From the NCBI GenBank assembly GCA_964487045.1, contig CAZAOT010000001.1, positions 70,745 through 134,744 on the forward strand: a stretch of DNA of 64,000 nucleotides. The letters are read 5' to 3'. The notes beneath the pieces are model-generated. The model did no database searches, was not told where the DNA came from, and worked only from the letters and a program-made list of their open reading frames with translations. The position numbers and the translations under genes were made by a program. Source of the stretch: an uncultured Candidatus Saccharibacteria bacterium (lineage in GTDB: Bacteria > Patescibacteriota > UBA1384 > DTJR01). The first letter of the stretch is position 1, and the number at the start of each line of letters is the position of its first letter. Positions 5,999 through 58,695 of the stretch are shown here, in pieces.

Positions 5999-6040
5999 TA
6001 TGTTTAGCTAGTTGTTTTCGAATGAGAATAACTTATTGAG

Positions 6041-6673
6041 TTATTTTAATCCATTAATTATAAATCTTACGATATTCTTTTTGTAACTTGTTAAATCATA
6101 TTTTTTCGAGTTAATTTCTAGGAGCATGACCTGAGAAACAATTACGCTGAGTATCAAACCAGCAAATTCCATCGTTTTAAAATCAGTGTGAAATTCTTTT
6201 TTCCTTTGACCTTCGTCCAGTATTTCCTTCAGAGTTCTGTGAAAGTGATTATCCTCCATTTTGCCAATGAGATTGTTTTGTGAAATAGAAAATTCAAAAA
6301 TTGCCAATAATCCTAGCCTCTGATTGTCCATATTGCCATTTACCAGAAGATTAAGAGCTCTCTCGAGTTTAGCCTCAGCAGAAAAAGTATCTTGTATAGA
6401 AGACTCATATATTTGTTTGAATTCTAGACCCAACAAATCCATAACGCTTTTGAAAATATCTTCTTTGGAAGAAAAGTGATGATAAACAGTTCCTTTTACT
6501 ACATTAGCCTTCGCTGCAATCATATCAACGGTTGACCTGTCGAAACCATGCCGAGCAAAAATCCTTTTTGCTCCTAAAAGAATTTTTTTTCTACTGGACT
6601 TATAGATCCTTTTATTCAATTTGGGCATTAGGAAATATATATCATATATTGCATAAATAATAAATATTCCCAT
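6041..6673 (-). CDS. TetR/AcrR-family transcriptional regulator
   Basis: N-terminal HTH signature KKILLGAKRIFARHGFDRSTVDMIAAKANVVKGTVYHHFSSKEDIF. Likely true start is the internal Met (MPKLNKRI, ~6628). Divergent from the giant gene at 6745. Confidence 0.8.
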   Translation of the reverse strand: MGIFIIYAIYDIYFLMPKLNKRIYKSSRKKILLGAKRIFARHGFDRSTVDMIAAKANVVKGTVYHHFSSKEDIFKSVMDLLGLEFKQIYESSIQDTFSAEAKLERALNLLVNGNMDNQRLGLLAIFEFSISQNNLIGKMEDNHFHRTLKEILDEGQRKKEFHTDFKTMEFAGLILSVIVSQVMLLEINSKKYDLTSYKKNIVRFIINGLK

Positions 6674-6710
6674 ATAAAAAAAATAATGAACAGGCGGGGT
6701 AGGGAGTTTG

Positions 6711-6729
6711 CTTATTACCGACTGATAAG
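6711..6729. promoter_or_regulatory. Inverted repeat cttattaccgactgataag (CTTAT-N9-ATAAG) abutting the -10 TATAAT (6730-6735) of the giant-protein gene; candidate TetR operator.
   Basis: Read directly. Lies between divergent TetR (6041-6673) and the 6745 start. TATAAT is only 9 nt upstream of the ATG, so the mRNA is leaderless or has a very short leader. Confidence 0.4.
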
Positions 6730-6744
6730 TATAATATAAACAGA

Positions 6745-9700
6745 ATGGGAGGGCGTATTTATAAGGTTGTTTACAGGACGAAAACTGTTGGCCGTAGGTT
6801 TAGCCGTGCCTTTGGTAATCTTTTTTTTGATGCTATCCAGGTAGTAAAAGTTTTATTCAAAATTAGGCGTTGCCCTGAAAAATTTTTGTCTAAATTTTTA
6901 ATATTAGCATGCCTAATCTCAATGGCTGTTTTAGTTTATGTTTATCCGTCGTCTGCAAATAGCAAATCTTATTCGATAACTACAAAAGAAGATTGGGAGG
7001 GAGGCACTCTTTCTAATCTTATAACTACTGATGCTCCCGGGGATCTTAAACTTGCTTCGGGTGGAACACTTTCTCATCAGGCTTGGCAAGACCCTCCAAA
7101 TACTGTTGGCTCTGGTGCAGCTGCTTCGGATGGGACAGATATTTATTTGCTCCGGGGTAATTACGATATTAATTTTTATAAGTATTCGAGTGCAAAAAAT
7201 ACTTGGTCGACATTGGCTGACGCTCCAGTGCAGGTTGGCCAAAGTAGTGCGCTTACTTATGATAACAGCGGTCATTTTTATGCTTTTTTTGGTAGAAATA
7301 CTCGCCAGTTTTATAAATACACAATCGCAACAAATTCTTGGACTGCTCTGGGTGACTTGCCCGACACGGTTAATATTGGTTCAAATATGGTGTTTACTAA
7401 CGGCAAGTTGTATATCTTGCGCTCAAACGCAACGACTGATTTTTGGTCATATACAATCGAAACAGGCGCTTGGGCAACCCTCAAGGCAACGCCTGCTACA
7501 TTTACAACCGCAAACGGATTTGTGACAGATGGGACTTATATTTATGCCTGTCGAGGTAATACTTTATGGTATAGGTACAACATCGCTTCAAATATTTGGG
7601 AGGCAATGACGACAGTTCTGCCAATTTCTCTAGCAGAGCAAACAGATTTTGTTTTGAGAAATGGAAGTATTTATTTTGCCGCACCCAGCTCTGCAACATA
7701 TTACAAGTGTGAACTTAGTGGTTTGGCTTGTACCGGAAATGCGTGGACAACGGCTACAACACTTCCTGCCGCAACTCGTTATAGCAACGCTGTCTACAAT
7801 GCATCCGATGATTATATTTATATTTTTCGTGGTAATAGTACTTACGATTTTTGGAAATATAGGCCCGGGGAGAGCAAAGTTGCTGGTCCTCAAATTTTTC
7901 CGCAAAACTTTACTACTGGAGGAGATATTGTTTACGGTGGAGGCGACACGGTCTATGGCTTGAAGGGAGCAGCAGCAGCCAATGGTTTTTATTCATATTC
8001 GATTGCCTCAGGCACATGGACACTCAAATCAGTCACTGGCTTGCCAACCCTCAGCAATGATGCAAAGACTGTAAAAGCGGGGGATAAGATTTATACATCA
8101 TCGGCAGCAAGTACTGCCTTCACAGCTTACGACACTACCAATGATGCGGCTGGTTGGGTAGCTAAAGCGGTTTCTCCGGGGGCTTTCGGAGCAGGTACAT
8201 CATTTACGTATCTCGGTGGGGATCTTATCTATGCGATGAGAGGTGCGGGTACTGTAAGTTTCTATGCCTACAGCATTTCAAATAATAACTGGTCAACATT
8301 TGACCCAGCCGATCTGCCAGCTGGTCTCGCACCAAGCATTGGTGCCCGCACTGTGACTAATGGTACTGAAATATTTGCGACAATGGGTAATGGAAGTAGT
8401 AAATTTTATAAGTATGAAGCCCAAAGCAATACTTGGGAAGAGAAGACTCAGCTTCCATTTGGCGCATATTATGGAACGGATCTGACATATTACAACGGAA
8501 AAATTTATGCAATCGATGGAAACTATCGGTCCGGACTATACGAATATGATATTTCAGCAAATAGTTGGAGAAAATTAGCCGACCTTCAGACCAGAACGAA
8601 TCTAAATAATGGAATGTGGTCAGGAAGTTCTATCGAATACGTAGGAAACAATGATCTGATGATCACTTTCGGGGCATCAAATATGGTTTTCTTTTATGAT
8701 GTTGATTCAAATACTTTTGCTTCCAGCGGATCTTACGAGTCAGCTTCAATCGACTTGGGAAATGTTTCAGCTTGGGGCTCGCTAACTGTAGCCAAGACAA
8801 CTCCGAGTGGAACTTCGGTTGTGGTTGAGACCAAAACTAGTGCCGACAACACCAATTGGCCTGAAAATTGGACTGCAGTATCTGGCACAACTATTGGATC
8901 TGACATTAATCGGTATGTAAAAATAAAGATTACTTTGAACGCAAATGGTGATAGAACACTTGCTCCGACAGTCAGCTCTCTAACCTTAAATTATAATCCC
9001 GATGATGTTGATCCAACTAATCCTCAGCAGGGTTCATTCACGGGACTTTCAGCAGAGGGGGGCACTGCGATAACGTCAACGACTGCGTACAGACACGAAC
9101 ATCCTTATTTCAGCTGGTCTGCAGGCGCTGATGCTGATTCTTATGTAGAAGGATATTATGTGTATTTTGGTTCTAATCAATCAGCGGATCCACAAGTAGA
9201 TGGAGTGTATCAAACAGCTACAAATTACAAAGTAAATGACAAGATTGCCGTTGGGAACAACTATTTATTAGTTAAAACCAAGGACCAGGCTGGAAATATT
9301 ACCGATAGTGCTGTCCAAGGGTTTATCTATAATTATATAGGAGCTACGCCTGCTACCTCGACTTTGTCTTCTGACGCGGATTTTAACGCTGGAGACAAAA
9401 CTAACCTTAGTGTCTCATCGGATAGCTTTGCGTTAGAGTCAAAAGCTGGCTTTTGGCAACAACAAAAGCTTTCTGTTTTTCCAGCCACGAGCGCTGCAGG
9501 AGCATCGATTATTAAGAAGGGTAATAAGCTCTATGCTACTCGCGGCTCGACAAATGCTTTTTATTCCTATGATTATGATACAGATACTTGGGCAACACTA
9601 ACGAGTACTAATCTAGGAGCTATGACAACCAACGGAGGCCTGGTCGACGGTCCTGGAAATTATATTTACGCATACCGTGGTAGCACTAGCGCATCATTCT

Positions 9701-12700
9701 ATAGATATGACGTGACAGATGATGCAGCTGGTTGGAGTGATGCCGATGCGGATGATGTGCCTGCTGCGCTAGGCGCTGGCTGCAATTCAACTTATGATGG
9801 CTCTAGATATATTTATATGTTTAAGGGCAACTCAAATGTTTTTTATAGGTTTGATCCTCAGGGCGACTCTAATGGGACCTGGGAATCAATGGAGCCGGTA
9901 AATTTTGGGACAAACACAGCAAATAACACAGTCGCTGACGGAGGCCAGCTTGTCCATGACGGAAGCGGAACTATATATGCAATTCAGGGAGGTCATTATC
10001 CTGGCGGATTTGCCAAATATACTATTTCAAGTGATACATGGACGCCGTTAAACTTTATTCCTGTTGGACCGTCAAGTGGTGCTTCTATGGTATGGGATTC
10101 TACAACTTCAAAAATATTATTAATTCCGGGCTATTCACGTGAATATTTATATAGTTATAACCCAGCAAATTCTTCCTGGACAAAGCTCAGTGATGCCCCG
10201 ATGACTTTTACGACAGGTACATCGGCTACAATTTCAGGCGACTACATGTATGTAATCAAGGGAAATAGCACAGGGTTCTATCGCTATAGAATTTCCAAAA
10301 ATTCATGGGAAATGCCAAGCTTTAATTTATTTGGAACGAATTTTCAGGGTGGATCGTCTTTCGCCTCTATTACGGGCGCGTTTGTTTTAAAAGGTGATGG
10401 CGATAATTTCTATTTAAACAGAGGTAATCTCGATACTAGGTTCATAAGGTATAATTCAAGAACAGGCGCCAGTAACCAAATGCCATCACTTCCAAGTGCT
10501 TCCAACCAATATTCTCTGCAAGTTTATGACGATGATCGAAATGATATATACTATTATTCAACCGCAGACAGTACCTTCTATAAATATGATATTGATACTG
10601 AATCATGGGAGAAGATTGCTACGGATCTTTTGCCGCAAGCGCCAGCAGCTGGATCTTCTTTTGTTTATGACGGCTCTACTTATATATACTATTTTAGAGG
10701 CGGAACAGTTTGGTACAGATATAATATTACTGCCGATGCAGGCTCGAGATGGTCAACAGCACTGCCTACAACCGGAATGTCAACTCTGGGTTACGGTTCA
10801 GATACAGTCATCAAAGATGGGTTTGTTTATGCTAATAGAGGATCGGTTGGAAATCCCAATGAATTTCGAAAGTTTGACCTGAGTCAATTACCTTCAGGTT
10901 CATGGTCCAATTTAACATCGATTCCTTATCCGGTCGGATACGATGGATTTTTAGAGGACGGTGGAAATGGCAAGCTCTATATACTAGCTGCCCATAACAC
11001 TAATAGATTTTACGAGTATACAATTGGTACTGACTCCTGGGCTCAGGTGGCAAATTTTCCAGGAGTTGCATATCAAGGTTCGGCTGGTGCCTCCGATAAA
11101 TTAAGTAAGATCTTTGCAATCTCTGGAAACGGAACTGGTTCGTATGCAGATGGTCTTTATAGCTATGTAATACAATCAGCAACATCTTCGTTTAAAGAAG
11201 AGGGAAATTTCATTTCTCCATCAATCGAACTCTCTGGAGCATACAAATTCGCTAATCTTACGCTAAATTACGAAGAAAAAAATAACACAACCGTCACTGT
11301 GTATACTCAAACTTCGGCAAACGGAGCAAGCTGGAGTGATTGGTCGCAGGCCACTAATATGAAGAGCTATGGCTTATCCGAGTTGGCTCACCAATATCAA
11401 ATTAATTCACCGCTTGCCAGATATATAAAAATAAAAGTTGAGTTAGTTTCTGGCGATGGGGTACTGTCACCGTCAATCAGCCAAATAGATATAAATTACT
11501 ATCAAGACAATACGAAACCAACAAACCCGCAAGCGTTATCGCAGGCAAAATCTGCTAAAGTTTCCGGTAGTGATATTACAAGCGGAATGGATAAATGGTA
11601 CAATTTCCCGTCAGCTTACTTCGCAATGCCAGAATCGGAGGCTGCAAATGGTGCATCAGATGGCGCAAACGGCTCCGGAGTAGCAGGATATTATATATAT
11701 ATGGGAACGAGTTCAGACGCTGTTCCTTCTCAAAGTCGGGGTATCGCCAATCAAGTTGGTGAAGCAAATCTTCATTATCAGACAGATCTTGATCTTGAAT
11801 TATCCGTGGATAGCTCTGCGCTTGAAACAGGTAAAACATATTATCTCTTGACGCAATCTAAGGACGCAGCTGGCAATGTGGCTGAAGCTATAAAAACATT
11901 GTTTATTTATAGATTTGATTCAACTGCTCCTTCAGCGCCGGCATCTGTTAATGCGACACAAAATGATCAAAAAACCCAATTTAACTTTACATGGCCTGCG
12001 CAGGGCGCGGAAGGAGGAGCGGCCGATGTTGATCCAAACGATTCTGACTCTCTGATTAACCCCTCTGGTTTAGCTGGTTATAAATATAAGACTGGAGCTG
12101 CATGGTCGTCATTAATCACTGAGTCAACTGTAAGTATTTCAAATAATCAAAATTTAGCAGGGGAGAATACTTTTCACTTGATAGCAATTGACAATGCAGG
12201 TAACGAATCAAGTGAAGCGACAGTTAAGTTTTATATCGCTCCGACCCAACCGCAAAATTTAAGTGCCTTGCCGGTTACATCGGCTCAAAATCCATCTGAA
12301 ACTAACAACTTTAAGTTTGTCTGGGAAGCTCCAACGTCAATGAATGGCAGTATAAAGCAGTATCGCTATTCGGTTAACGCACCGCCAACCGCTTTGAATA
12401 CCGTTAATCAGGTTATTACAGGTACGACGCTAGGCTGGGGTGCTTACGCAACCCAACAGGGCAAGAACACGCTATATATTGTTGCTGAAGGCGATTGGGG
12501 TGGAAGCAATATTAATTACGATGCCTATGCAACCCTTGATTTTTATATCGAAACGCCCGCACCAAATCCTCCCGAAAACTTATCGGTTACAGACAGCTCT
12601 AACAGATCCAGCTCTGACTATAGATTGACTGTGGTTTGGAGTGAGCCAAAGACTGGCGAGGAGCCAGAAAATTATGTGGTAAAGCGATCAACTGATAATC

Positions 12701-14109
12701 AAAGTTTTTCGGAGGTTGGTACTACTTCTTCAACCGGGTTTCTGGATTCGGACTTGGAAGGAGATAAGACTTATTATTATAAAGTTTTTTCAAAAGATTC
12801 TGCAGGTGCACTTTCTGAAGATCAAGGCTCAAACGGTACGGTATCTAAGAAACCGACCGGAAAATATTCCACTCCACCAACGATCGCAGAATCATCAATT
12901 CATTCAGTAGCAGGAGCATCAACCGTTGAAATTAACTGGGTTACTAATCGTGCATCGGACTCATTTGTTGAATATGGTACAACTGAGGCTCTTGGGCAGA
13001 CTTACGGACAAAGAGAAGAGGTTACGGAACATAAGGTTAAGATTGATGGGCTAAAGGCTGGCAACAAGTATTATTTCAAAGCCCAGAGCTTGGATCCGGG
13101 TGATTTGAGAGACTACTCACAGACAGTTGGATATTCTGAGGTTCATGAGTTTGAAACAACGGCTGCTCCTACATTATCGAGCGTATCTTTCTCGAACATT
13201 ACTACAAGTTCGGCGATTATGAGTTTTGATACTAATAAAACTTCAACTGCGAAAATACAATATGGGACATCGACAGAGTATGGAAAAGAAATTGTTGATT
13301 CGTCAGGATCTGGAACTACTAAGCACACCGTTCTCCTTGAGGATTTACAGGATGGGACAACGTATCAGCTAAAAGTGACAATTACAGATGAAGAAAATAA
13401 TATCGTTGATTCTCCGGGTCATGCTTTTACCACAAGGGCAAAGCCAAAAATTGAGGCAATGAATATTGAGCCGATCAAAGATGCGTCCGATACGTCCGTC
13501 AAAGTCACTTGCGTCGCTAATGTCGAGGTAGCGTTCTCAGTTCAATATAGTCCATCTACTGATTCGGCGAAAAAAGAAGTAGCAACTGCTGAATTTAAGA
13601 AAGTGCACGAATTCACAGTCAATGGCTTGTCTGACCAGAGTAAATATTCTTTTCAGGCAATTGCTAGAGATCAACTTGGGAATGAGGTAAAGTCCGAAGT
13701 CAAAACATTTGATACACCAAACGACTCAAGACCACCTGCCATTACTGATATCTCGACTGAGAGTTCGAATGTGGGTCTTAATAAGCAGGACAAGGCGCAA
13801 ATTGTTGTTGCTTGGAAAACTGATGAGCCTACGACTAGCATGATTGAATATGGCGAAGGAATGTCTGGAACGGATTACAGCCAGAAGACTAAAGAAGACG
13901 CAACCATGACCAATTCCCACCTTGTAATTATTTCAGATCTTGAGCCAAGCCAAGCTTATCACATAAGGATTTCGTCTACGGATAAGGGAGGGAATAATAC
14001 TAAATCAGAGGATATTTCGGTTGTTCCTGGCGAAGTTCCAAAATCTGTCTTACAGATGCTACTTAATACTTTTAAAGATGTTTTTGGATGGATGGGAAAG
14101 TTGATATAG
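6745..14109 (+). CDS. Giant (2454 aa) membrane-anchored surface protein. N-terminal signal/anchor, Kelch-like beta-propeller blades (~50-aa repeats with YxY/FYKY/W motifs), FN3-like modules, PAP-N/FN3 domains, and a conserved C-terminal module shared with the 2-5998 protein.
   Basis: Long ORF. Hydrophobic segment FLILACLISMAVLVYVY near the N-terminus. The C-terminal 130 aa are ~60% identical to the C-terminus of the first giant protein (…SEDISVVPGEVPKSVLQMLLNTFKDVFGWMGKLI). Start uncertain: an in-frame TTG before SKFLILACLIS is possible. Confidence 0.8.
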   Translation: MGGRIYKVVYRTKTVGRRFSRAFGNLFFDAIQVVKVLFKIRRCPEKFLSKFLILACLISMAVLVYVYPSSANSKSYSITTKEDWEGGTLSNLITTDAPGDLKLASGGTLSHQAWQDPPNTVGSGAAASDGTDIYLLRGNYDINFYKYSSAKNTWSTLADAPVQVGQSSALTYDNSGHFYAFFGRNTRQFYKYTIATNSWTALGDLPDTVNIGSNMVFTNGKLYILRSNATTDFWSYTIETGAWATLKATPATFTTANGFVTDGTYIYACRGNTLWYRYNIASNIWEAMTTVLPISLAEQTDFVLRNGSIYFAAPSSATYYKCELSGLACTGNAWTTATTLPAATRYSNAVYNASDDYIYIFRGNSTYDFWKYRPGESKVAGPQIFPQNFTTGGDIVYGGGDTVYGLKGAAAANGFYSYSIASGTWTLKSVTGLPTLSNDAKTVKAGDKIYTSSAASTAFTAYDTTNDAAGWVAKAVSPGAFGAGTSFTYLGGDLIYAMRGAGTVSFYAYSISNNNWSTFDPADLPAGLAPSIGARTVTNGTEIFATMGNGSSKFYKYEAQSNTWEEKTQLPFGAYYGTDLTYYNGKIYAIDGNYRSGLYEYDISANSWRKLADLQTRTNLNNGMWSGSSIEYVGNNDLMITFGASNMVFFYDVDSNTFASSGSYESASIDLGNVSAWGSLTVAKTTPSGTSVVVETKTSADNTNWPENWTAVSGTTIGSDINRYVKIKITLNANGDRTLAPTVSSLTLNYNPDDVDPTNPQQGSFTGLSAEGGTAITSTTAYRHEHPYFSWSAGADADSYVEGYYVYFGSNQSADPQVDGVYQTATNYKVNDKIAVGNNYLLVKTKDQAGNITDSAVQGFIYNYIGATPATSTLSSDADFNAGDKTNLSVSSDSFALESKAGFWQQQKLSVFPATSAAGASIIKKGNKLYATRGSTNAFYSYDYDTDTWATLTSTNLGAMTTNGGLVDGPGNYIYAYRGSTSASFYRYDVTDDAAGWSDADADDVPAALGAGCNSTYDGSRYIYMFKGNSNVFYRFDPQGDSNGTWESMEPVNFGTNTANNTVADGGQLVHDGSGTIYAIQGGHYPGGFAKYTISSDTWTPLNFIPVGPSSGASMVWDSTTSKILLIPGYSREYLYSYNPANSSWTKLSDAPMTFTTGTSATISGDYMYVIKGNSTGFYRYRISKNSWEMPSFNLFGTNFQGGSSFASITGAFVLKGDGDNFYLNRGNLDTRFIRYNSRTGASNQMPSLPSASNQYSLQVYDDDRNDIYYYSTADSTFYKYDIDTESWEKIATDLLPQAPAAGSSFVYDGSTYIYYFRGGTVWYRYNITADAGSRWSTALPTTGMSTLGYGSDTVIKDGFVYANRGSVGNPNEFRKFDLSQLPSGSWSNLTSIPYPVGYDGFLEDGGNGKLYILAAHNTNRFYEYTIGTDSWAQVANFPGVAYQGSAGASDKLSKIFAISGNGTGSYADGLYSYVIQSATSSFKEEGNFISPSIELSGAYKFANLTLNYEEKNNTTVTVYTQTSANGASWSDWSQATNMKSYGLSELAHQYQINSPLARYIKIKVELVSGDGVLSPSISQIDINYYQDNTKPTNPQALSQAKSAKVSGSDITSGMDKWYNFPSAYFAMPESEAANGASDGANGSGVAGYYIYMGTSSDAVPSQSRGIANQVGEANLHYQTDLDLELSVDSSALETGKTYYLLTQSKDAAGNVAEAIKTLFIYRFDSTAPSAPASVNATQNDQKTQFNFTWPAQGAEGGAADVDPNDSDSLINPSGLAGYKYKTGAAWSSLITESTVSISNNQNLAGENTFHLIAIDNAGNESSEATVKFYIAPTQPQNLSALPVTSAQNPSETNNFKFVWEAPTSMNGSIKQYRYSVNAPPTALNTVNQVITGTTLGWGAYATQQGKNTLYIVAEGDWGGSNINYDAYATLDFYIETPAPNPPENLSVTDSSNRSSSDYRLTVVWSEPKTGEEPENYVVKRSTDNQSFSEVGTTSSTGFLDSDLEGDKTYYYKVFSKDSAGALSEDQGSNGTVSKKPTGKYSTPPTIAESSIHSVAGASTVEINWVTNRASDSFVEYGTTEALGQTYGQREEVTEHKVKIDGLKAGNKYYFKAQSLDPGDLRDYSQTVGYSEVHEFETTAAPTLSSVSFSNITTSSAIMSFDTNKTSTAKIQYGTSTEYGKEIVDSSGSGTTKHTVLLEDLQDGTTYQLKVTITDEENNIVDSPGHAFTTRAKPKIEAMNIEPIKDASDTSVKVTCVANVEVAFSVQYSPSTDSAKKEVATAEFKKVHEFTVNGLSDQSKYSFQAIARDQLGNEVKSEVKTFDTPNDSRPPAITDISTESSNVGLNKQDKAQIVVAWKTDEPTTSMIEYGEGMSGTDYSQKTKEDATMTNSHLVIISDLEPSQAYHIRISSTDKGGNNTKSEDISVVPGEVPKSVLQMLLNTFKDVFGWMGKLI

Positions 14110-14859: not shown

Positions 14860-16054
14860 AAAATTTTTAGTTAAATTTGCATTTAAGAATCTGATGATGC
14901 ATAAGTCAAGAACAGTTTTGACTGTGCTTGGTGTGACGGTGGGTATATCAGCGATAGTCTTTTTAGTCGCATTTGCCTTCGGAATCGAAAGGCTGGTTAC
15001 AAGTGAAGTTACTAAGGGAAATGCATATAAGTTGATCGATGTTGGTACTGGAAGCGTGCAAGCGCTTAGAATTAACGAAGAAACTATCAACCAGCTCAAA
15101 CAAATATCTGGAGTCAAGTCGATTGAGCCTACCCTTAATATTGGGGCGAAAGCCAAGGATAAAGATCGTACAACAGATGTCACTTTTTCAGGTACAAGCG
15201 ATAAATATCTCGAATGGAGTGGCCTTGCTACACGTTGGGGAACGGGCTTAGAAAAGACTAAAACCGGTAAGCCGATTTTAGTTAATAGTGCTTTCTTAAA
15301 ATTTATGCCTTCATACAATAATCAGACTATCTTGGGGCAAGAAGTTAGCTTTGATTTAGTGATTCCTAAGGAGCTGACTTCAGAGGATGCCAAGAAAGCC
15401 ACCGACGCAAAATTTACAATTGTTGGTGTTGTACCTGATGGTGCGATTGCGACTGTCTATGCCAGGTACGGCGATGTCTTGGAGCTCGGGGCTAAGAATT
15501 TTTCGCAGATAAAAGTTGAATCTCAAACTGACGATAAGGTTAAAATCGACACAATTAGAAAGCAAATTGAAAACCTTGGTTACAAAACTCAGTACGTAGG
15601 GGATACTGTCGCGCAGATTGAACAAATCTTTCAAATTTTCAAAATTATTTTGGGAAGTTTCGGCCTGATCGCTCTGATTGTCGCTGCACTTGGTATGTTT
15701 AATACTTTGACTATTTCACTTTTGGAAAGAACCAAAGAAGTGGCTCTTCTAAAAATTCTTGGAATGCGCCGAAAAGACATTTCCTCAATATTCTTAACCG
15801 AAGCAATTTCAATTGGCGTCTTTGGCGGCGTGGTCGGTGTATTTACTGGATATTTAATCGGTCTCGGAGCTAACTCCTTGTTTAATTATTTTGCTACTCG
15901 TGCCGGAGGGGAATCAGTAGACGTATTTATGTTCCCAATTTGGTTTATGCTCGCGATTTGGGCTTTTGCGATTTTACTTGGCATAATAACCGGTATCTAT
16001 CCAGCTCGAAGAGCCTCCAAAGTCGATGCTCTTGATGTTCTAAGGTACGAGTAA
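14852..16054 (+). CDS. ABC transporter permease, FtsX/MacB-type (N-terminal TM, large extracytoplasmic domain, C-terminal 3-TM FtsX domain)
   Basis: Starts AFKNLMMHKSRTVLTVLGV as in MacB/LolE. Overlaps the ATPase gene by 8 nt. Hydrophobic C-terminal third. Confidence 0.85.
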   Translation: MDRKFLVKFAFKNLMMHKSRTVLTVLGVTVGISAIVFLVAFAFGIERLVTSEVTKGNAYKLIDVGTGSVQALRINEETINQLKQISGVKSIEPTLNIGAKAKDKDRTTDVTFSGTSDKYLEWSGLATRWGTGLEKTKTGKPILVNSAFLKFMPSYNNQTILGQEVSFDLVIPKELTSEDAKKATDAKFTIVGVVPDGAIATVYARYGDVLELGAKNFSQIKVESQTDDKVKIDTIRKQIENLGYKTQYVGDTVAQIEQIFQIFKIILGSFGLIALIVAALGMFNTLTISLLERTKEVALLKILGMRRKDISSIFLTEAISIGVFGGVVGVFTGYLIGLGANSLFNYFATRAGGESVDVFMFPIWFMLAIWAFAILLGIITGIYPARRASKVDALDVLRYE

Positions 16055-16070
16055 TTTTTATAAAAAAGAA

Positions 16071-16098
16071 GGCGAACGTCCCCGGAGGGTCGTTCGCC
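16071..16098. terminator. GC-rich hairpin ggcgaacg…cgttcgcc between convergent genes (bidirectional terminator candidate); a second hairpin aaggctg-cgtgt-cagcctt follows at 16113-16131.
   Basis: Stem read directly (8 bp plus an inner extension with one mismatch). No downstream T-run on the + strand; A-run upstream (T-run for the minus strand). Confidence 0.5.
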
Positions 16099-16123
16099 TT
16101 AGAAGCGCCCTGAAGGCTGCGTG

Positions 16124-16933
16124 TCAGCCTTTCTTGCCGTACTTGATGTAGTTCGGGCAGAGATGCTGCGGCAGAGTGCCTTCGCGGACCTCTGACTTGT
16201 AACCGTCGCGGAGGCTGCCGTGGTAGCCGTAGTTGCGAAGCAGTAGCAGCCTCGCCTCTGGATCGGCGAGGAGAGTTGCCATCGGGATGGCGTGCTGCCT
16301 GGTGCAGCCCAGGCAGTAAATCGGTACGTCGCCCTCGCCGAAGCAGCCAGTGATCCATGAATCGGTCTGGTCCCAGTACAGGGGTTCGTACCTGTCGCTA
16401 CTCGTCAGATACCGGGTCGCCAGCTTGTAAGGTAGGGCGAATTTCGCGAAGCGCTCAGGCAGAAATGAGAGATCCTGAAAGATGATCGTTTCGTTCATCG
16501 CCGCGATGCCGTTGCCGGCTGCGACGCTGAACTGTCTGAGGCTCGTGAGCACGGTCGTCTCGTTGTCTTGTAGCTCGGCTGAGAGCACAATCGCGCGGCT
16601 CGGCACCGAAAAGTAGGCGCCATCATCGAGAAAGCCCTGACCGATGAAGTATGGTCTCATCGGCCTGCCAGAGAGTCCCATGCAGATCTGAACTGAGTTC
16701 GATGTTAGGTCCTCTCTGAAATGAATGATTGGTGTCGGATCAAGATCAAGAATCTCTTGTGGCACTTCGACTCTTGTCCGGTCATGCCAACCAAAGTCGG
16801 GGATCGGCTCGAAGATCAGCGAGCCCTTAGACGTCTGGTAGCAGATTGTCCCGCGATGCCGATCGCAGACTCCGCGATTCCTGTCCGTCTTGCGAACGTG
16901 CAACTTCATGCTTACTTCCGAGACTTTGTTCAT
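16124..16933 (-). CDS. Hypothetical protein (269 aa) encoded in a GC-rich island; several Cys/His pairs (CDRHRGTIC, GCFGEGDVPIYCLGC). Orphan, probably horizontally acquired.
   Basis: ORF fills the GC-rich island and has a GC3-rich codon pattern unlike its neighbours. SD GGGAGAAG 3 nt before the ATG. Minus-strand promoter TTGATT-17-TAATAT at 17032-17060. Confidence 0.5.
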   Translation of the reverse strand: MNKVSEVSMKLHVRKTDRNRGVCDRHRGTICYQTSKGSLIFEPIPDFGWHDRTRVEVPQEILDLDPTPIIHFREDLTSNSVQICMGLSGRPMRPYFIGQGFLDDGAYFSVPSRAIVLSAELQDNETTVLTSLRQFSVAAGNGIAAMNETIIFQDLSFLPERFAKFALPYKLATRYLTSSDRYEPLYWDQTDSWITGCFGEGDVPIYCLGCTRQHAIPMATLLADPEARLLLLRNYGYHGSLRDGYKSEVREGTLPQHLCPNYIKYGKKG

Positions 16934-17031
16934 ACTTCTCCCTATCCCTTGCGGGAGAGCGGTTTTCGCCGGAGTCGCTCACTCCATATTAAGGTGCGTC
17001 GTGTCCTTGTCTCAAGACAGGGAAACGCTAA

Positions 17032-17060
17032 ATATTATCAAATTATGGATCGAAAATCAA
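17032..17060 (-). promoter_or_regulatory. Sigma70-like promoter (TTGATT-17-TAATAT) for the GC-rich orphan gene 16124-16933
   Basis: Hexamers and spacing read on the minus strand. Confidence 0.4.
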
Positions 17061-17127
17061 GTATCTTAACTGGTAAAAGTAAAGAGAACTTGACAGTCAG
17101 ACGCCAGCTATGATATTTTTGATTCTT

Positions 17128-17170
17128 GGCAGTGTCTCGCCTCGATTTCCCCCTTCGGGCAGACACTGCC
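17128..17170. repeat. Perfect 10-bp inverted repeat ggcagtgtct-N23-agacactgcc in the groES leader
   Basis: Read directly. Lies between a candidate TTGACA (17089) promoter and groES ATG 17308. Does not match the CIRCE consensus. Confidence 0.6.
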
Positions 17171-17307
17171 TATAAACTAAGCAAGTCCCATATATCTCAA
17201 TCTCTTGCAATATTCCTAATCTAGGAAATCTGCAAATAGATATCGATACTACGGGACTTCCGGAATTGCTTCCTGCCTTGGAGCGCAATTCACGGAGCGG
17301 AGGACAT

Positions 17308-19255
<1,948 letters not shown>

Positions 19256-28752: not shown

Positions 28753-28781
28753 TTGACTAATTGTCCGATAAGGAGTAAAAT
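28753..28781 (+). promoter_or_regulatory. Sigma70-like promoter TTGACT-17-TAAAAT for the GC-rich Cys-rich gene
   Basis: Hexamers and 17-nt spacer read directly. Confidence 0.45.
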
Positions 28782-28823
28782 CTAACCACTTCGTTGTTCA
28801 CACCATTCTCTGGAGGAAGCAAG

Positions 28824-29483
28824 ATGTCGAGTAGTCGATTGTATTTCCGCGAAGAACCGCCGGTTGCGGAGGGTGTCTTGCCGTCGCTTGGCGGATCGGG
28901 CCTGAATATTCCGCCGGATGAGCTGGCGAGACGCCAGCGTTGTCGCGGCAATCACAAGGAGCTACCGAACCCGCAGAAGTACGGGTATCCGGTGAGCCTC
29001 GAGCACTGCGACTGTAACCGCTGCGAGGCGGTTGGGGACTGCAGCGCTCGCCTCGATGCTTTGCGTGCGATCTGCGCTGAAGCAATGGAGTTCGATAAGG
29101 AGACGATGCTCTTCTTCGCTGGATCCGAGGTCTGCCAGTCGTGCCGGTACTTCGCCGAGTGTTCTGCTCGGTCTGAGGCGCGGCGCAGTCACTGCGTTGC
29201 TCCTGAAGAGGAAAAGCCGAAGCCCAAGCGCCGACCTACGATTGAGGAGTGGCATGAGCGACATGCGCCGGCTGGCGGACCCGAGTTCTTCGGCTGGCCC
29301 TTGATCGAGTCATCGCTGGCTTGCCAGTGCTGCCCCGACTTGAAGGGTTGCCTGAAGGAAGTCGCACGCCAGAGCATGTGCGCTGACGGCAAGCCGAAGA
29401 AGGGCGATATTGAGACTCCCTTCGACCCCAGGCACCCTGCGTGTAAGGCATGTGGACACTGCGAAGCGCTTCGCGCAACGTAG
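28824..29483 (+). CDS. Cys-rich hypothetical protein (219 aa) in a GC-rich island; paired-Cys motifs CDCNRC, CQSCRYFAEC, CQCCPDLKGC, CKACGHC (putative metal-binding)
   Basis: SD GGAGGAAG 7 nt before the ATG at 28824; the track TTG start at 28794 is probably an over-extension. GC3-rich codons. Followed by hairpin gggtggc…gccaccc at ~29507-29536. Confidence 0.5.
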   Translation: MSSSRLYFREEPPVAEGVLPSLGGSGLNIPPDELARRQRCRGNHKELPNPQKYGYPVSLEHCDCNRCEAVGDCSARLDALRAICAEAMEFDKETMLFFAGSEVCQSCRYFAECSARSEARRSHCVAPEEEKPKPKRRPTIEEWHERHAPAGGPEFFGWPLIESSLACQCCPDLKGCLKEVARQSMCADGKPKKGDIETPFDPRHPACKACGHCEALRAT

Positions 29484-29596
29484 GTGTGAACAACTAGAGT
29501 CTCCAAGGGTGGCGGGCCGCAAGGTCGGCCACCCGTTTACATTCTGGATATTTATAAAATTTTTGATATGATATCTCAAGTCAAAAGATAAGTTTT

Positions 29597-29640
29597 GGCC
29601 TCATCATCTAGTGGTTAGGATACCATGTGATGATTTTTGA
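29597..29640 (+). other. tRNA-like 5' fragment. The first ~30 nt resemble the 5' half (acceptor + D-arm, ctagtggttagga) of the downstream tRNA-Glu; no anticodon/T-arm/3' acceptor found.
   Basis: Compared by eye with tRNA-Glu at 29748. Folds only as hairpin tcatca…tgatga. Possible tRNA remnant or att-site duplicate. Confidence 0.35.
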
Positions 29641-29747: not shown

Positions 29748-29822
29748 GGCCCCTTCGTCTAGTGGTTAGGACGTCAGGTTCTCATCCTGGCAACGAGGGT
29801 TCGATTCCCTCAGGGGTCACCA
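29748..29822 (+). tRNA. tRNA-Glu (anticodon CTC), CCA encoded
   Basis: Cloverleaf by hand: acceptor GGCCCCT/AGGGGTC, D-loop AGTGGTTAG, anticodon stem TCAGG/CCTGG with loop TTCTCAT, T-arm GAGGGTTCGATTCCCTC, discriminator A + CCA. Followed by T6. Confidence 0.9.
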
Positions 29823-29918: not shown

Positions 29919-29935
29919 GTTTATAAAATCAAAGC

Positions 29936-29985
29936 GGCCAGGTTCCGACTCTTTTACCCGTGGGTAAAAGAGTCGGAACCTGGCC
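29936..29985. repeat. Perfect 24-bp inverted repeat ggccaggttccgactcttttaccc-gt-gggtaaaagagtcggaacctggcc
   Basis: Arms verified base by base as exact reverse complements. Sits at the boundary of a ~215-bp GC-rich non-coding stretch (29986-30200). Confidence 0.8.
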
Positions 29986-30497
29986 GTGTGTGGGTCCCCA
30001 ATGGCGCCGCTCGTGCATCTCATGCTTGAAGCATCTGCGCGGGCCGCCGGCGCCGGTGTCGCGCGTCTGCTTAACGCGGTCAAAGGTGGGGTTCCGTCGG
30101 AACGACGAGCCGATCGGAGGTCCATACTTCATGCTACCATCTCCTCTTGTGCTCCGGACGAACCGGAGTTAATGGGAACGAACATCCTCGGCTTTGACTA
30201 AGCTAGTCTCAGCTCAAGAATTAGTAGGCATATATTAGCAAAAATGCTCAAAATTGTCAACCCCTATAACTAAAATATATTGTCGCTTTAGCGACCCCGC
30301 TAACAAAAGTCGATTTTGCGCTTCGAGAGGCCGATTCTAGCGAAGCGATTTTCGGAGTGTCTCAGAAAGCAAAATCGTCTTTTGGGCGTGTTAGGGTGAG
30401 GAAAGTTTTGAAAACCTAGGGAATTTGCTCGCAACAAATCCCTGGGTTTTCAAATTGTCTGTTAGCTTTAGCTAACTAATTTGATATAATTAAATTA

Positions 30498-32054: not shown

Positions 32055-32083
32055 TTGCAAAATCTATCATTTAGATCTAATAT
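32055..32083 (+). promoter_or_regulatory. Sigma70-like promoter TTGCAA-17-TAATAT upstream of the GC-rich basic-protein gene
   Basis: Hexamers and spacer read directly. Confidence 0.4.
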
Positions 32084-32174
32084 AGCGCTTAAGAAGTACG
32101 TTCCTTTAAGGGAGGCGATGTATCCTCAGGTAGCCGCAGCGTTTGACTAGACACTATTTCTACCGAGGTGTGTC

Positions 32175-32600
32175 ATGTCTGGCAGAAGAAAGAAGCCGTT
32201 TGCGCAAACGGGAGGAGAGGTGCTGGTCAGGTTTACTCCACCTGCAAGTGGAGTTCCGAGGACGATTGGCGAGACCGTAGATGGTGACAAGATCGTGGTC
32301 TCGCCGAATGCGATTCGACAGGCCAAAAGGGTCTGTGAACCCAAGGGCATCAGGCCGCCATTCTATCTCTGGCTTTTGAGCGAGTACATGGGCGATAGCC
32401 ACAAGATCAGGCTTCGCGGTTACGCTGTCAAGGTTAAGGCCACCCGAGGCCAGATCGACGACTTTGTCGCGAAGCGAGGCGATCCTCGTCTCCCAGACTA
32501 TCTGTTCGAGAAGCGCTTTGGGCCCAAAGCCGCGATCAGGCGGCGAAAGCGCTCTCGCAAGGCGGACGAGCTTCGCCGGAAGGCGCAGCGCCTTGCGTAG
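32175..32600 (+). CDS. Small basic hypothetical protein (141 aa, Arg/Lys-rich ends; possible nucleic-acid binding) in a GC-rich island
   Basis: SD GAGGTG 6 nt before the ATG. GC3-rich codons. N-terminal RRKKP and C-terminal RRRKRSRKADELRRKAQR. Confidence 0.5.
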   Translation: MSGRRKKPFAQTGGEVLVRFTPPASGVPRTIGETVDGDKIVVSPNAIRQAKRVCEPKGIRPPFYLWLLSEYMGDSHKIRLRGYAVKVKATRGQIDDFVAKRGDPRLPDYLFEKRFGPKAAIRRRKRSRKADELRRKAQRLA

Positions 32601-32617
32601 GGCGTACTGACTTCTTC

Positions 32618-32646
32618 TTGGCCCCGGCAGTATCTGCCGGGGCCAA
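32618..32646. terminator. Perfect 13-bp GC-rich hairpin ttggccccggcag-tat-ctgccggggccaa between convergent genes
   Basis: Arms verified as reverse complements. Confidence 0.6.
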
Positions 32647-57856: not shown

Positions 57857-57906
57857 TTGATCTCTACTCTTGCTGGTGCTATATTGTCCTGATCTGAATA
57901 TTCAGA
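57857..57906 (+). promoter_or_regulatory. Sigma70-like promoter TTGATC-17-TATATT (57857-57885) followed by the perfect 14-bp palindrome tctgaatattcaga (57893-57906) at the predicted transcription start
   Basis: Hexamers, spacing and palindrome read directly; candidate operator. Confidence 0.45.
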
Positions 57907-57927
57907 CGATCCTTGAGGAGGCAGGAA

Positions 57928-58608
57928 ATGCTTCAGACAGTCGTATCGGCGTCAGCGGGCTTAATGACTACCTACCACGTAGAACGTGCTGGGGTCATTA
58001 GTCTTGGATCACTCGGGAGAGGACTAGTTGTGGTCAGTCGCAACATCTTCTGCCGTTACCTCATATCTCCAGAAGGCGAGATGGGGTTCTTCGATCAGCA
58101 GTGTCTCGCAAGTTCGCGCATGAATAACACCCTTGTCGGCGGAAAGATTGACTTGGCTGCCTATATGGCAGGTGCCTTCAAGGGATTGTGCACTAACTGC
58201 ATCGAGGGAACGGCGAGTGTTGTATCGCGAGATTTTCTCGCCCAGGTACTGCCAACTCTCGACCTGTCTATTCTGAAGGTGGAGCGGTTCTCACTGGTGA
58301 TAACAACGCTTCAAAGTGCCGACAAGGCCTGCAGCTTCATGATGAGACGTCGTATCCAAGGCTTTCCGGAGTATTTGACCGGCGCCTACACTCTGCCTAC
58401 TGATCTGCTACACGAGGCAGGTAAGCTGTTCAGATCATCCTGGCTTCAGGGCAACCTGGATTCGATCGATGCTCTGGTCAGGTCAACTGGAGAGACGCCT
58501 CAGCTCAGAGGGGCAGGTTCAGCTGGTATACTTTCGAGTCCACTTCGCGCGAATTTGATGAAGTGGTTCAAGGGAATCACGTGTCACGAAGCTATCTCTC
58601 TAGAATGA
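57928..58608 (+). CDS. Hypothetical protein (226 aa) in a GC-rich island; orphan
   Basis: SD GAGGAGG 6 nt before the ATG at 57928; the track TTG start at 57913 is probably an over-extension. Codon usage richer in GC than neighbours. Confidence 0.45.
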   Translation: MLQTVVSASAGLMTTYHVERAGVISLGSLGRGLVVVSRNIFCRYLISPEGEMGFFDQQCLASSRMNNTLVGGKIDLAAYMAGAFKGLCTNCIEGTASVVSRDFLAQVLPTLDLSILKVERFSLVITTLQSADKACSFMMRRRIQGFPEYLTGAYTLPTDLLHEAGKLFRSSWLQGNLDSIDALVRSTGETPQLRGAGSAGILSSPLRANLMKWFKGITCHEAISLE

Positions 58609-58628
58609 GCGTCTTTTGCTTTATCTCT

Positions 58629-58658
58629 AGGCCGCTGCGCCATCTGACGCAGCGGCCT
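58629..58658 (+). terminator. Perfect 11-bp GC-rich hairpin aggccgctgcg-ccatctga-cgcagcggcct followed by a T-rich tract
   Basis: Arms verified as reverse complements; ttgtcttttt downstream. Confidence 0.6.
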
Positions 58659-58695
58659 ATTGTCTTTTTAGGAGTAAAAATGTATTTTTTAAGTA

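What the first reader, a model, noticed from the sequence alone, without database searches (positions are those of the whole stretch)
16060..17250. GC-rich single-gene expression cassette 1 of 4: orphan 269-aa protein with its own promoter, SD and hairpin terminators between the ABC transporter and groESL
A ~900-bp island of clearly higher GC than its surroundings is almost exactly filled by one minus-strand ORF. The ORF is GC3-rich and has Cys/His clusters (CDRHRGTIC, GCFGEGDVPIYCLGC).

It has its own minus-strand promoter (TTGATT-17-TAATAT) and SD (GGGAGAAG). It is bracketed by GC-rich perfect hairpins at 16071-16098, 16113-16131 and 17128-17170.

Three more such cassettes occur at 28.8-29.5 kb, 32.2-32.6 kb and 57.9-58.6 kb. 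They encode unrelated proteins, yet each has the same architecture: AT-rich consensus promoter, GGAGG SD, GC-rich ORF, strong perfect-stem terminator.

The pattern suggests repeated acquisition of individual genes from a higher-GC donor, for example a high-GC host of an epibiont, or a common cassette-capture mechanism. No integrase, transposase or direct repeats mark the boundaries.
Basis: partly seen in the sequence, partly recalled or inferred. Interest (0 to 1): 0.6.

Follow-up and report, generated by a model that had tools for sequence, protein, structure and literature searches.

The report
Resident GC-rich orphan gene with conserved leader
The GC-rich island is a real, independently transcribed orphan gene of a Berkelbacteria-like bacterium, but it has sat beside the chaperonin genes, and stayed GC-rich, for a very long time rather than arriving recently, and it carries a previously undescribed, perfectly conserved RNA leader.

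Summary
Window 16060-17000 is 56.7% GC against a 41% background. One minus-strand ORF (16124-16933, 269 aa, GC3 0.71 vs 0.27-0.47 for backbone genes) fills most of it, with its own promoter, SD and terminator. Four further GC-rich units exist, and independent assemblies carry the same junctions, so it is not a chimera.

The recent-transfer reading fails for islands 1 and 3. Both have orthologues in the same slot in related lineages (GroEL 88% identical), with conserved promoters. Synonymous sites are saturated in flanks and island alike, yet island GC3 stays 0.71-0.79 in four lineages. The protein evolves 2.5-7 times faster than its neighbours and tracks the host tree. Other slots gain, lose or swap GC-rich genes, so turnover is also real. 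No shared boundary motif or mobility gene was found.

New here: all four family lineages share an invariant 5' leader core (16945-16987, minus strand), absent from Rfam. It is consistent with a hairpin, pseudoknot and SD-proximal hairpin. The family sits beside groES in three lineages and hsp20 in one. The protein has conserved Cys/His residues and no known family or fold match. What keeps these genes GC-rich is unresolved.

The parts
16056..16100 (-). Intrinsic terminator of the island gene: hairpin AAGGCGAACGaCCC-UCCG-GGGaCGUUCGCCUU followed by CUUUUUU
   Evidence: Inverted repeat I4. RNA fold z = -4.35. An orthologous hairpin with a different stem sequence sits at the same distance from the ABC permease stop in L008, and one follows the gene in L014.
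16113..16132 (-). Small hairpin overlapping the stop codon
   Evidence: RNA fold.
16124..16933 (-). Protein-coding gene, 269 aa, GC3 0.715, no known family. Invariant residues include C84, C207-x2-C210-x3-H214 and C259.
   Evidence: pN 0.38 < pS 0.72 against the L008 orthologue. No Pfam, PHROG, PADLOC or NCBIfam hit.
16935..16942 (-). Shine-Dalgarno GGGAGAAG
   Evidence: Read from the sequence. An SD-like site occupies the same place in the orthologues.
16945..16987 (-). Invariant leader core AUGGAGUGAGCGACUCCG-nnn-AAAACCGCUCUCCC-loop-GGGA. Proposed pairing: P1 GGAGU/ACUCC, pseudoknot GAGCG:CGCUC, P3 UCCC-loop-GGGA.
   Evidence: Identical in four lineages except the 3-nt linker and the P3 loop. 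Occurs once in the window, none expected by chance. No Rfam match. P1 and P3 are predicted in all four leaders.
16996..17028 (-). 5' leader hairpin P0; its sequence varies between lineages but a hairpin is kept
17032..17060 (-). Promoter: -35 TTGATT, 17-nt spacer, extended -10 TGaTAATAT
   Evidence: Read from the sequence. Conserved as TTGATT-17-TGtTAGAAT in L008 and TGtTAGTAT in L014.
17090..17170 (+). groES promoter-like site (TTGACA, 17090-17119) and 5' leader stem-loop (17128-17170). This belongs to the neighbour, not to the island gene.
   Evidence: z = -5.4.
28753..29534 (+). Cassette 2: promoter TTGACT-17-TAAAAT, ORF from the ATG at 28824 to 29483 (219 aa, Cys-rich; GC3 0.69 measured on the 28794-29483 frame), terminator hairpin 29507-29534
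29929..30132 (-). Fifth, small GC-rich unit (67-aa ORF) ending in a 25-bp-stem hairpin at 29933-29985
   Evidence: The hairpin and the GC-rich slot are conserved in L095.
32055..32646 (+). Cassette 3: promoter TTGCAA-17-TAATAT, ORF 32175-32600 (141 aa, GC3 0.67), hairpin 32618-32646
   Evidence: Orthologue in L095 with 51% identity, GC3 0.72 and a conserved promoter.
57857..58659 (+). Cassette 4: promoter TTGATC-17-TATATT, ORF 57928-58608 (226 aa, GC3 0.56), hairpin 58628-58659
   Evidence: Both junctions are present in independent assemblies.

Best explanation
Island 1 is a long-resident, vertically inherited, monocistronic accessory gene of a Berkelbacteria-like (CPR/Patescibacteria) lineage. 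It is not a recent insertion.

Shown. It is transcribed divergently from groES from a conserved extended -10 promoter-like element, and it ends at its own intrinsic terminator next to the ABC-permease stop codon. It encodes a fast-evolving protein of about 265 aa under purifying selection, with an invariant Cys/His set (C84, C207-x2-C210-x3-H214, C259) and no detectable relative outside four lineages. The whole transcribed unit (leader, ORF, terminator) sits in a GC-rich, C3-preferring, Arg-rich compositional regime. Unrelated cassettes elsewhere in these genomes share that regime. It has persisted through saturating synonymous divergence.

Inferred. Translation is gated by the invariant leader of about 45 nt. 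The CGCUC(UCCC) segment can pair with the loop of hairpin P1 (pseudoknot). Alternatively it can pair with the GGGA/SD region just upstream of the start codon. A bound ligand or protein that stabilises one state would set SD access.

Inferred, weaker. The product is a zinc-binding stress- or proteostasis-linked accessory protein, because the family sits beside groESL in three lineages and beside hsp20 in the fourth.

Inferred, unresolved. The GC-richness is held by a gene-specific force. I favour selection acting at the RNA or codon level on weakly constrained proteins, with ancient foreign origin as the ultimate source. Single-gene turnover in neighbouring slots adds and removes similar units.
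For: Not a chimera: five independent Logan assemblies carry the gene joined to the permease.

Synteny: P0002 lies between the MacB-type permease and groES in L008/L009. P0003 lies divergently upstream of groES in L014.

Divergence, window vs L008 (tblastn gives 85.5% for the ATPase): GroEL 88%, GroES 86%, ATPase 87%, permease 69%, island protein 42%. pS is 0.74-0.87 in the flanks and 0.65-0.74 in the island. GC3 is 0.71-0.79 in the island against 0.34-0.51 in the flanks. dN is 0.54 against 0.08-0.23. The island tree matches the GroEL tree (L008 and L014 are closest in both). At strain level the island and the permease differ by similar amounts.

Promoter, leader and terminator are positionally orthologous.

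Leader: invariant core. P0, P1 and P3 are predicted in all four leaders. In three of four leaders the P1 loop is free (unpaired probability 0.86-0.90), CGCUC is mostly paired downstream and the SD is about half-sequestered.

Shared codon regime among unrelated cassettes: r = 0.4-0.75.

Island 3 behaves the same way.

hsp20 context of P0004.
Against: Only four lineages are known, and three of them share one ancestral groES context, so the chaperone link rests on two independent placements.

P1 and the pseudoknot are invariant, so there is no covariation for them. The invariance could equally mark a protein- or DNA-level site.

Predicted SD accessibility hardly changes between 25 and 45 C.

Zinc binding is inferred from residues only. 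The AF2 model is moderate (pLDDT 71, pTM 0.62) and has no significant fold match.

The L011/L014 orthologue has an in-frame TAG, so the gene may be dispensable there.

No mechanism is known that would hold one gene at GC3 0.7 next to genes at 0.36. Recurrent replacement from an unsampled GC-rich pool is not excluded.
Confidence: 0.6

Rival explanations
1. Recent horizontal acquisition of a single gene from a higher-GC donor, for example the host of an epibiont, not yet ameliorated.
For: Strongly atypical GC, GC3, codon usage and amino-acid composition. ORFan status. GC-rich genes are present or absent at other slots between relatives. HGT in Patescibacteria is documented in general (PMC12455944).
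Against: Orthologues occupy the same slot, with the same junctions, promoter and leader, in lineages whose synonymous sites are saturated. GC3 is equal (0.71-0.79) in four lineages. No donor homologue exists among 1.84 billion representatives. There are no mobility genes, flanking repeats or shared boundary motif.
Confidence: 0.08
2. Recurrent allelic replacement. The family really lives in an unsampled GC-rich gene pool (plasmid, phage, or GC-rich Berkelbacteria such as the roughly 60%-GC genome behind L029). Chromosomal copies are repeatedly overwritten at the same slot by recombination through the conserved promoter/leader and backbone flanks. This keeps them GC-rich.
For: Unrelated cassettes in different lineages share one codon regime. 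Cassette content differs between lineages at the same slot, as in the island-2 slot, the extra 291-aa gene in L008 and the extra 125-aa gene in L012. GC-rich Berkelbacteria exist (L029 median GC 0.60). A truncated tRNA-Glu copy beside island 2 points to past integration or recombination.
Against: No copy in a GC-rich context was found in any collection. The island tree agrees with the host tree and strain-level divergence equals that of the flanks. The AT-rich promoter is part of the conserved unit.
Confidence: 0.22
3. Local GC-biased process, either biased gene conversion at recombination-prone accessory loci or a transcription-linked repair bias, rather than selection or foreign origin.
For: All three codon positions, the leader and the terminator are GC-shifted, and amino-acid usage follows (Arg 10% vs 3.4%). 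That pattern resembles a mutational or conversion pressure. The GC-rich segment coincides with the transcribed unit.
Against: The boundaries are sharp at gene scale while adjacent backbone genes are unaffected. A GC3 difference of 0.35 is far larger than I know to have been attributed to biased gene conversion in bacteria (my own knowledge, not checked here). Promoter and terminator composition is dictated by function anyway.
Confidence: 0.08
4. Artefact: a chimeric assembly, or a spurious ORF in GC-rich non-coding sequence.
For: GC-rich DNA carries long chance ORFs. Several overlapping ORFs are seen in island 2.
Against: Identical junctions appear in independent assemblies from several runs. 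Homologues are conserved at the protein level with pN < pS. The codon periodicity GC3 > GC1 > GC2 is clear. An open frame this long arose in 2 of 2000 shuffles.
Confidence: 0.02

Closest known systems
Horizontally acquired genomic islets and prophage 'morons' (autonomous single-gene units with their own promoter and terminator and atypical GC)
   Same: One gene with its own promoter, SD and terminator, sitting between unrelated genes. Composition differs sharply from the surroundings. Similar units are present or absent between related genomes.
   Different: The unit lies in a housekeeping backbone, not a prophage. There is no mobility gene or repeat. It is orthologous and equally GC-rich in lineages with saturated synonymous divergence, so it is neither recent nor ameliorating.
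Integron gene cassettes and Xer-dependent dif modules (small gene modules moved by site-specific recombination without their own integrase)
   Same: Single-gene modules with hairpin-forming DNA at the 3' end and no integrase inside the module.
   Different: The cassettes are dispersed rather than arrayed, and each has its own promoter. The 3' hairpins are perfect GC-rich stems with T-runs, differ in sequence, and share no core site. No intI or attI was seen.
Small H-type pseudoknot riboswitches that gate the SD (e.g. preQ1-II, SAM-II) and protein-binding translational operators
   Same: A compact, highly conserved element of about 45 nt immediately upstream of the SD. A hairpin loop is complementary to a downstream segment, an A-rich linker lies between them, and an alternative pairing with the SD region is possible.
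   Different: No sequence or structure match to any Rfam family. The helices are invariant, so no covariation is available. The ligand is unknown and the downstream gene is an ORFan.
Heat-shock gene control elements (HrcA-CIRCE, ROSE and fourU RNA thermometers)
   Same: Genomic association with groESL and hsp20. The SD is partly sequestered in the predicted ensemble.
   Different: No CIRCE in the window. Predicted SD accessibility is nearly temperature-independent between 25 and 45 C. Such strict sequence invariance is not typical of RNA thermometers (my own knowledge).

Membership tests
Recently acquired genomic island (HGT) | Atypical base composition and codon usage | tested here: met
   GC 0.567 vs 0.41. 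GC3 0.715 vs 0.27-0.47. RSCU anticorrelated with the backbone.
Recently acquired genomic island (HGT) | Absent from the same locus in close relatives | tested here: not met
   Orthologues lie in the same slot in L008/L009 and L014, where GroEL is 88% identical. They are absent near groESL in more distant GTDB Berkelbacteria, where GroEL is at most 81% identical.
Recently acquired genomic island (HGT) | Composition decaying towards the host (amelioration), or an identifiable donor | tested here: not met
   GC3 is 0.71-0.79 in four lineages despite pS of 0.65-0.74. No donor homologue was found.
Recently acquired genomic island (HGT) | Mobility genes, a tRNA target or flanking direct repeats | tested here: not met
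   None for island 1. The Xer-type gene 2.9 kb away is a backbone gene. Island 2 does lie beside tRNA-Glu and a truncated tRNA copy.
Integron gene cassette | Promoterless ORF followed by an attC site, in an array next to intI/attI | tested here: not met
   The cassette has its own conserved promoter. The cassettes are dispersed over 42 kb. The 3' hairpins are unrelated terminator-like stems with no shared motif. I did not run a dedicated attC model.
Cis-regulatory leader RNA (riboswitch-like) | Conserved element at a fixed position in the 5' UTR of homologous genes | tested here: met
   The invariant core ends 8-20 nt upstream of the start codon in all four lineages.
Cis-regulatory leader RNA (riboswitch-like) | Secondary structure supported by covariation | tested here: inconclusive
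   P0 and the P3 stem/loop change while hairpins are kept. P1 and the pseudoknot strands are invariant, so they give no evidence either way. Only four distinct sequences exist.
Cis-regulatory leader RNA (riboswitch-like) | Membership of a described RNA family | tested here: not met
   Rfam 15 at gathering threshold over the whole window gave only a tRNA. A search of 16850-17320 at E <= 10 gave only chance matches outside the motif.
Cis-regulatory leader RNA (riboswitch-like) | Ligand- or protein-dependent switch of SD access | not testable with these tools
   Needs in-line probing or SHAPE, and reporter assays.
RNA thermometer | SD-sequestering helix that melts over the physiological temperature range | tested here: not met
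   Mean unpaired probability of the SD region changes by at most 0.05 between 25 and 45 C in all four leaders. This is a nested-structure prediction only.
HrcA-CIRCE heat-shock regulon | CIRCE inverted repeat TTAGCACTC-N9-GAGTGCTAA | tested here: not met
   No match with up to 3 mismatches in the window.
Any described protein family or fold | Significant profile or structure match | tested here: not met

The most novel reading that the evidence does not exclude
These Berkelbacteria-like genomes stably keep two compositional compartments. One is an AT-rich housekeeping backbone. The other is a dispersed set of GC-rich, C3-preferring, Arg-rich, fast-evolving orphan transcription units. The second set's composition would be actively maintained by a gene-specific force (RNA-level selection, or a targeted GC-biased process) rather than being a fading trace of transfer. 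Island 1 would be one such unit, controlled by a new class of pseudoknot leader (riboswitch or protein operator) and encoding a new zinc-binding partner of the chaperone system.
Probability: 0.25. Interest if true: 0.8.

Novelty: new variant of a known kind. Interest (0 to 1): 0.55.

Why it matters
Atypical GC is routinely read as recent gene transfer. Here two adjacent gene classes keep GC3 near 0.36 and near 0.72 through saturating divergence. If that generalises, composition-based HGT calls in CPR genomes are misleading, and some unknown force shapes a whole class of orphan genes in these reduced, probably symbiotic bacteria.

The invariant leader is a concrete, testable candidate for a new regulatory RNA. 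The orphan protein's repeated placement next to chaperone genes gives a first handle on its function.

Tried and rejected
- **Family libraries.** Pfam, PHROGs, PADLOC and NCBIfam on all cassette proteins gave nothing.
- **Word-indexed protein searches.** Both the single-sequence and the profile search found only the 99% copy and P0004. The full HMMER search was needed to find P0002-P0004.
- **Motif scans.** GTDB representatives gave 0 hits, JGI metagenomes gave 1 (L014), and viral contigs gave 0.
- **Viral contigs, phage records and plasmids.** No relatives of the cassette proteins that were queried; islands 3 and 4 were checked only against viral contigs.
- **Exact GroES look-ups.** Both attempts failed.
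- **CIRCE.** Absent.
- **Thermometer idea.** Not supported.
- **Shared boundary motif.** Only AT-rich low-complexity matches were found (13 observed; shuffles gave 0-14, mostly 1-7).
- **P2 hairpin.** The GGCG/CGCU hairpin predicted in the window is not conserved (the linker is GCU or AUG elsewhere), so I rejected it.
- **38-kb GC rise.** It is a low-complexity Ala/Gly region, not a cassette.
- **Errors of mine.** One search was a malformed request. One search used a wrong frame for island 4, corrected.
- **Literature.** Three searches found no description of GC-rich orphan cassettes in Berkelbacteria or CPR.
Full report
**1. The observation**

The window averages 41.8% GC. The two 500-bp windows covering 16001-17000 are 56.6% and 55.4% GC. 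Region 16060-17000 is 56.7% GC, with a robust z of 5.5 against all 900-bp windows.

One minus-strand ORF fills most of it: 16124-16933, 269 aa. Its GC1/GC2/GC3 values are 0.55/0.43/0.715. The ABC transporter genes, groES, groEL and the Xer gene have GC3 of 0.36-0.44. An open frame this long arose in 2 of 2000 shuffles of the island sequence.

A greedy gene call over the whole window gives a bimodal GC3 distribution. Backbone genes lie at 0.27-0.47. The outliers are island 1 (0.71), 28794-29483 (0.69), 32175-32600 (0.67), 57913-58608 (0.56) and a small ORF at 29.9-30.1 kb (0.57). A GC rise at 38 kb is only an Ala/Gly-rich stretch of a backbone protein.

I read the equivalent parts of the other cassettes directly, and their hairpins fold strongly (z = -3.7 to -4.9).

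- The hairpin at 17128-17170 lies upstream of the island's own promoter and just downstream of a groES promoter-like site at 17090-17119. It belongs to the groES leader, not to this gene.

**2. Not an artefact**

The exact 269-aa product is encoded on independent Logan assemblies from SRR11845623, -24, -25 and SRR29243449. A 99% variant is in SRR26844649. The longer of these contigs also carry the ABC permease.

Three of these contigs all stop at window position 17280. The variant strain has a 118-bp indel in the groES leader (17181-17298), which would create an assembly bubble there.

Island 4 is likewise flanked on both sides in independent assemblies.

The strain variant differs from the window by about 1.2% in the permease gene and about 0.7% in the island ORF. 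The island therefore diverges together with its flanks.

**3. The organism**

GroEL is 81% identical to a Candidatus Berkelbacteria MAG and 73-79% identical to other Berkelbacteria-like MAGs. The window is from a CPR/Patescibacteria genome.

**4. The protein family**

No Pfam, PHROG, PADLOC or NCBIfam model matches any of the cassette proteins.

A full HMMER search of 1.84 billion representatives found four clusters:

| Cluster | Identity to the window protein | Length |
|---|---|---|
| P0001 (near-identical copy) | 99% | 269 aa |
| P0002 | 43% | 263 aa |
| P0003 | 45% | 193-aa call |
| P0004 | 33% | 259 aa |

Nothing was found in viral contigs, phage records or plasmids.

An AlphaFold model built on the five-sequence alignment is moderate (pLDDT 71, pTM 0.62). 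It has no significant match in the PDB or BFVD. A PDB sequence-profile search also gave nothing.

The invariant residues C207-x2-C210-x3-H214 lie on a predicted beta-hairpin followed by a helix, and C259 lies next to a short C-terminal helix. That arrangement suggests a zinc site. This is an inference, not a result.

**5. Context of the homologues**

This is the key result.

- **P0002** lies in L008/L009 between the MacB-type permease and groES-groEL. That is the same slot and orientation as in the window. An extra GC-rich 291-aa gene sits between it and groES.
- **P0003** lies in L014 (a JGI metagenome contig) divergently upstream of groES-groEL.
- **P0004** lies in a GC-rich two-gene islet next to an hsp20 gene.

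In every case the gene is GC-rich against a lower-GC background.

None of 80 groEL loci from GTDB species representatives contains a homologue. The family is therefore confined to a small clade plus one outlier.

**6. Age and composition**

| Comparison, window vs L008 | Amino-acid identity |
|---|---|
| GroEL | 88% |
| GroES | 86% |
| ABC ATPase | 87% (85.5% by tblastn) |
| Permease | 69% |
| Island protein | 42% |

- Synonymous differences are saturated in the flanks (pS 0.74-0.87) and in the island gene (pS 0.65-0.74).
- GC3 is 0.71, 0.73, 0.79 and 0.71 in the four island lineages. It is 0.34-0.51 in the flanking genes.
- pN is below pS (0.38 vs 0.72), so the protein is under purifying selection.
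- Its dN (0.54) is 2.5-7 times that of its neighbours (0.08-0.23).
- L008 and L014 are each other's closest relatives both for GroEL (92%) and for the island protein (58%), so the island tracks the host tree.

The promoter, the leader and the position of the terminator relative to the permease stop codon are orthologous between lineages.

Under the classical amelioration model (Lawrence and Ochman 1997, as cited in PMC12455944), a transferred gene should drift towards the host's composition at the synonymous rate. That has not happened here. Island 1 is an old resident, and its GC-richness is being maintained.

**7. The other cassettes**

L095 (NCBI GCA_041890195.1) is collinear with window 20.8-32.6 kb.

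- **Island 3** has an orthologue there: 51% identity, GC3 0.72, and a conserved TTGCAA-17-TAATAT promoter.
- **The island-2 slot** (C39 peptidase to tRNA-Glu) holds an unrelated GC-rich 98-aa ORF.
- **The slot after tRNA-Glu** is GC-rich in both genomes and shares a long hairpin.
- **Extra cassettes in L095:** GC-rich genes of 285, 100 and 79 aa sit between backbone genes. The 285-aa gene lies between two genes (PAP2 and PRC) that are adjacent in the window.

GC3-outlier ORFs also flank groESL in other Berkelbacteria-like loci (L016, L019, L020, L022, L025). They are rare in more distant CPR loci.

Unrelated cassettes from different lineages share one codon regime:

- RSCU correlations among them are 0.4-0.75, and -0.1 to -0.6 against the backbone.
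- Third-position C is 0.40-0.56 in the island-1 family and the cassettes sampled from L008, L095 and L096; islands 2 and 3 carry more G than C at that position.
- Arg is 10% against 3.4% in the backbone; Asn is 1.7% against 5.2%.

(Island 4 was in the wrong frame in that run. Its corrected values are.)

So there is a dispersed class of GC-rich orphan units. Some are conserved in place. Others are gained, lost or replaced.

I found no shared boundary motif, no flanking repeats and no associated mobility gene. The one exception is a truncated tRNA-Glu copy beside island 2.

**8. The leader**

Aligning the upstream regions showed an invariant core in all four lineages:

AUGGAGUGAGCGACUCCG-nnn-AAAACCGCUCUCCC-(loop)-GGGA

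In the window this is 16945-16987 on the minus strand. Only the 3-nt linker and the final loop vary. The surrounding leader and the coding sequence have diverged heavily.

- It occurs once in the window, with none expected by chance.
- Among all fetched loci it occurs only upstream of this family.
- It has no Rfam counterpart.

Each leader is predicted to form three hairpins:

- a 5' hairpin (P0) whose sequence differs between lineages;
- hairpin P1, GGAGU-GAGCG-ACUCC;
- hairpin P3, UCCC-loop-GGGA, with loops GCAA, GAAA and UUAGUAU, or an extended stem.

The P1 loop GAGCG is exactly complementary to the downstream CGCUC (duplex energy -6.2 kcal/mol). Apart from the leading AUG, the G before the variable linker and the AAAAC linker, every invariant base can therefore be placed in P1, a pseudoknot or P3.

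In nested-structure ensembles of three of the four leaders:

- the P1 loop is free (unpaired probability 0.86-0.90);
- CGCUC is mostly paired with downstream bases;
- the SD is about half-sequestered;
- almost nothing changes between 25 and 45 C.

I infer a translational switch in which pseudoknot formation competes with SD sequestration. It would be set by a ligand or a protein rather than by temperature.

The invariance gives no covariation for P1 or the pseudoknot. A protein- or DNA-level recognition site therefore remains possible.

**9. Function**

The family sits beside groESL in three lineages (one ancestral event) and beside hsp20 in the fourth. No CIRCE element is present in the window.

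I commit, with low confidence, to a zinc-binding accessory protein linked to stress or proteostasis. Its synthesis would be gated by the leader.

**10. What keeps it GC-rich**

This is unresolved. The options I considered are:

- gene-specific selection at the RNA or codon level on weakly constrained proteins (my preference);
- repeated overwriting from an unsampled GC-rich pool;
- a local GC-biased conversion or repair process.

Recent transfer and assembly artefact are effectively excluded for islands 1 and 3.

**11. Verdict**

The recent-acquisition and cassette-capture interpretation is only partly supported.

The finding is a new variant of a known kind: a compositionally atypical orphan islet with two unusual properties. 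Its GC-rich composition persists through saturating divergence. It also carries a new, invariant leader RNA.

The evidence base is thin. There are four lineages, the contigs are short, and there are no expression data. I found no published description of this pattern in three literature searches.

Noticed in passing
window 29597-29625 and 29748-29822: A truncated 5' half of a tRNA-Glu gene (GGCCTCATCATCTAGTGGTTAGGATACCA) lies about 120 nt upstream of the intact tRNA-Glu(CTC). The fragment resembles the tRNA-Glu of the relative L095 more closely than the intact copy does. This looks like a scar of integration or gene replacement at the tRNA, right beside GC-rich island 2.
   Followed up: partly
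window 29929-30200; L095 11385-12100: A GC-rich segment downstream of tRNA-Glu starts with a 25-bp-stem hairpin (29933-29985). The hairpin is conserved in L095 (72% identity over about 100 nt), but the body differs in length: about 270 bp with a 67-aa minus-strand ORF here, about 650 bp with no called gene in L095. It could be a fifth cassette or a structured RNA.
   Followed up: partly
window 17181-17298: The strain variant in SRR26844649 (L005) differs from the window by a 118-bp indel in the groES 5' leader. This explains why three Logan contigs all end at 17280.
   Followed up: yes
window 17079-17119; L008 about 2905-2950; L014 about 1105-1150: The groES promoter region carries a conserved GTAAAG placed 4-5 nt upstream of the -35 box (CTTTACA or CTTGACA). 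In two lineages it forms an inverted repeat with the -35 box. No CIRCE is present. This may be an operator for chaperonin control in this clade.
   Followed up: no
L011 161-163; L014 about 876-878: The P0003 orthologue has an in-frame TAG where P0002 has Trp (FP*PNS vs FPWLNS). Two independent assemblies (ENA and JGI) show it. It is either a pseudogene or read-through, while the leader and promoter remain intact.
   Followed up: no
window 28824-29483: The island-2 protein (219 aa) contains four repeats of a C-x2-C-x5/6-C type cysteine motif (e.g. CDCNRCEAVGDC, CQSCRYFAEC, CQCCPDLKGC, CKACGHC). It may bind metal or an Fe-S cluster. It has no family match.
   Followed up: no
window 32119-32151: The island-3 leader holds a 10-codon upstream ORF (MYPQVAAAFD*) behind a GGGAGG SD. 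The SD-like GGGAGG is conserved in L095 but the upstream ORF is not.
   Followed up: partly
L008 7057-7650: An IS200/IS605-type Y1 transposase gene (AT-rich, GC3 0.36) sits next to the ABC ATPase gene in the relative. It is absent at that place in the window.
   Followed up: no
window 16979-16987 (minus strand): The invariant leader core begins with AUG GAG UGA, a two-codon start-stop mini-ORF conserved in all four lineages. This may be coincidental.
   Followed up: no
window 218-14109: Two very large ORFs of 1926 and 2454 aa with repetitive sequence occupy a fifth of the window upstream of the ABC transporter; the 2454-aa product has a hydrophobic stretch near its N-terminus, so it may be a surface protein.
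   Followed up: no
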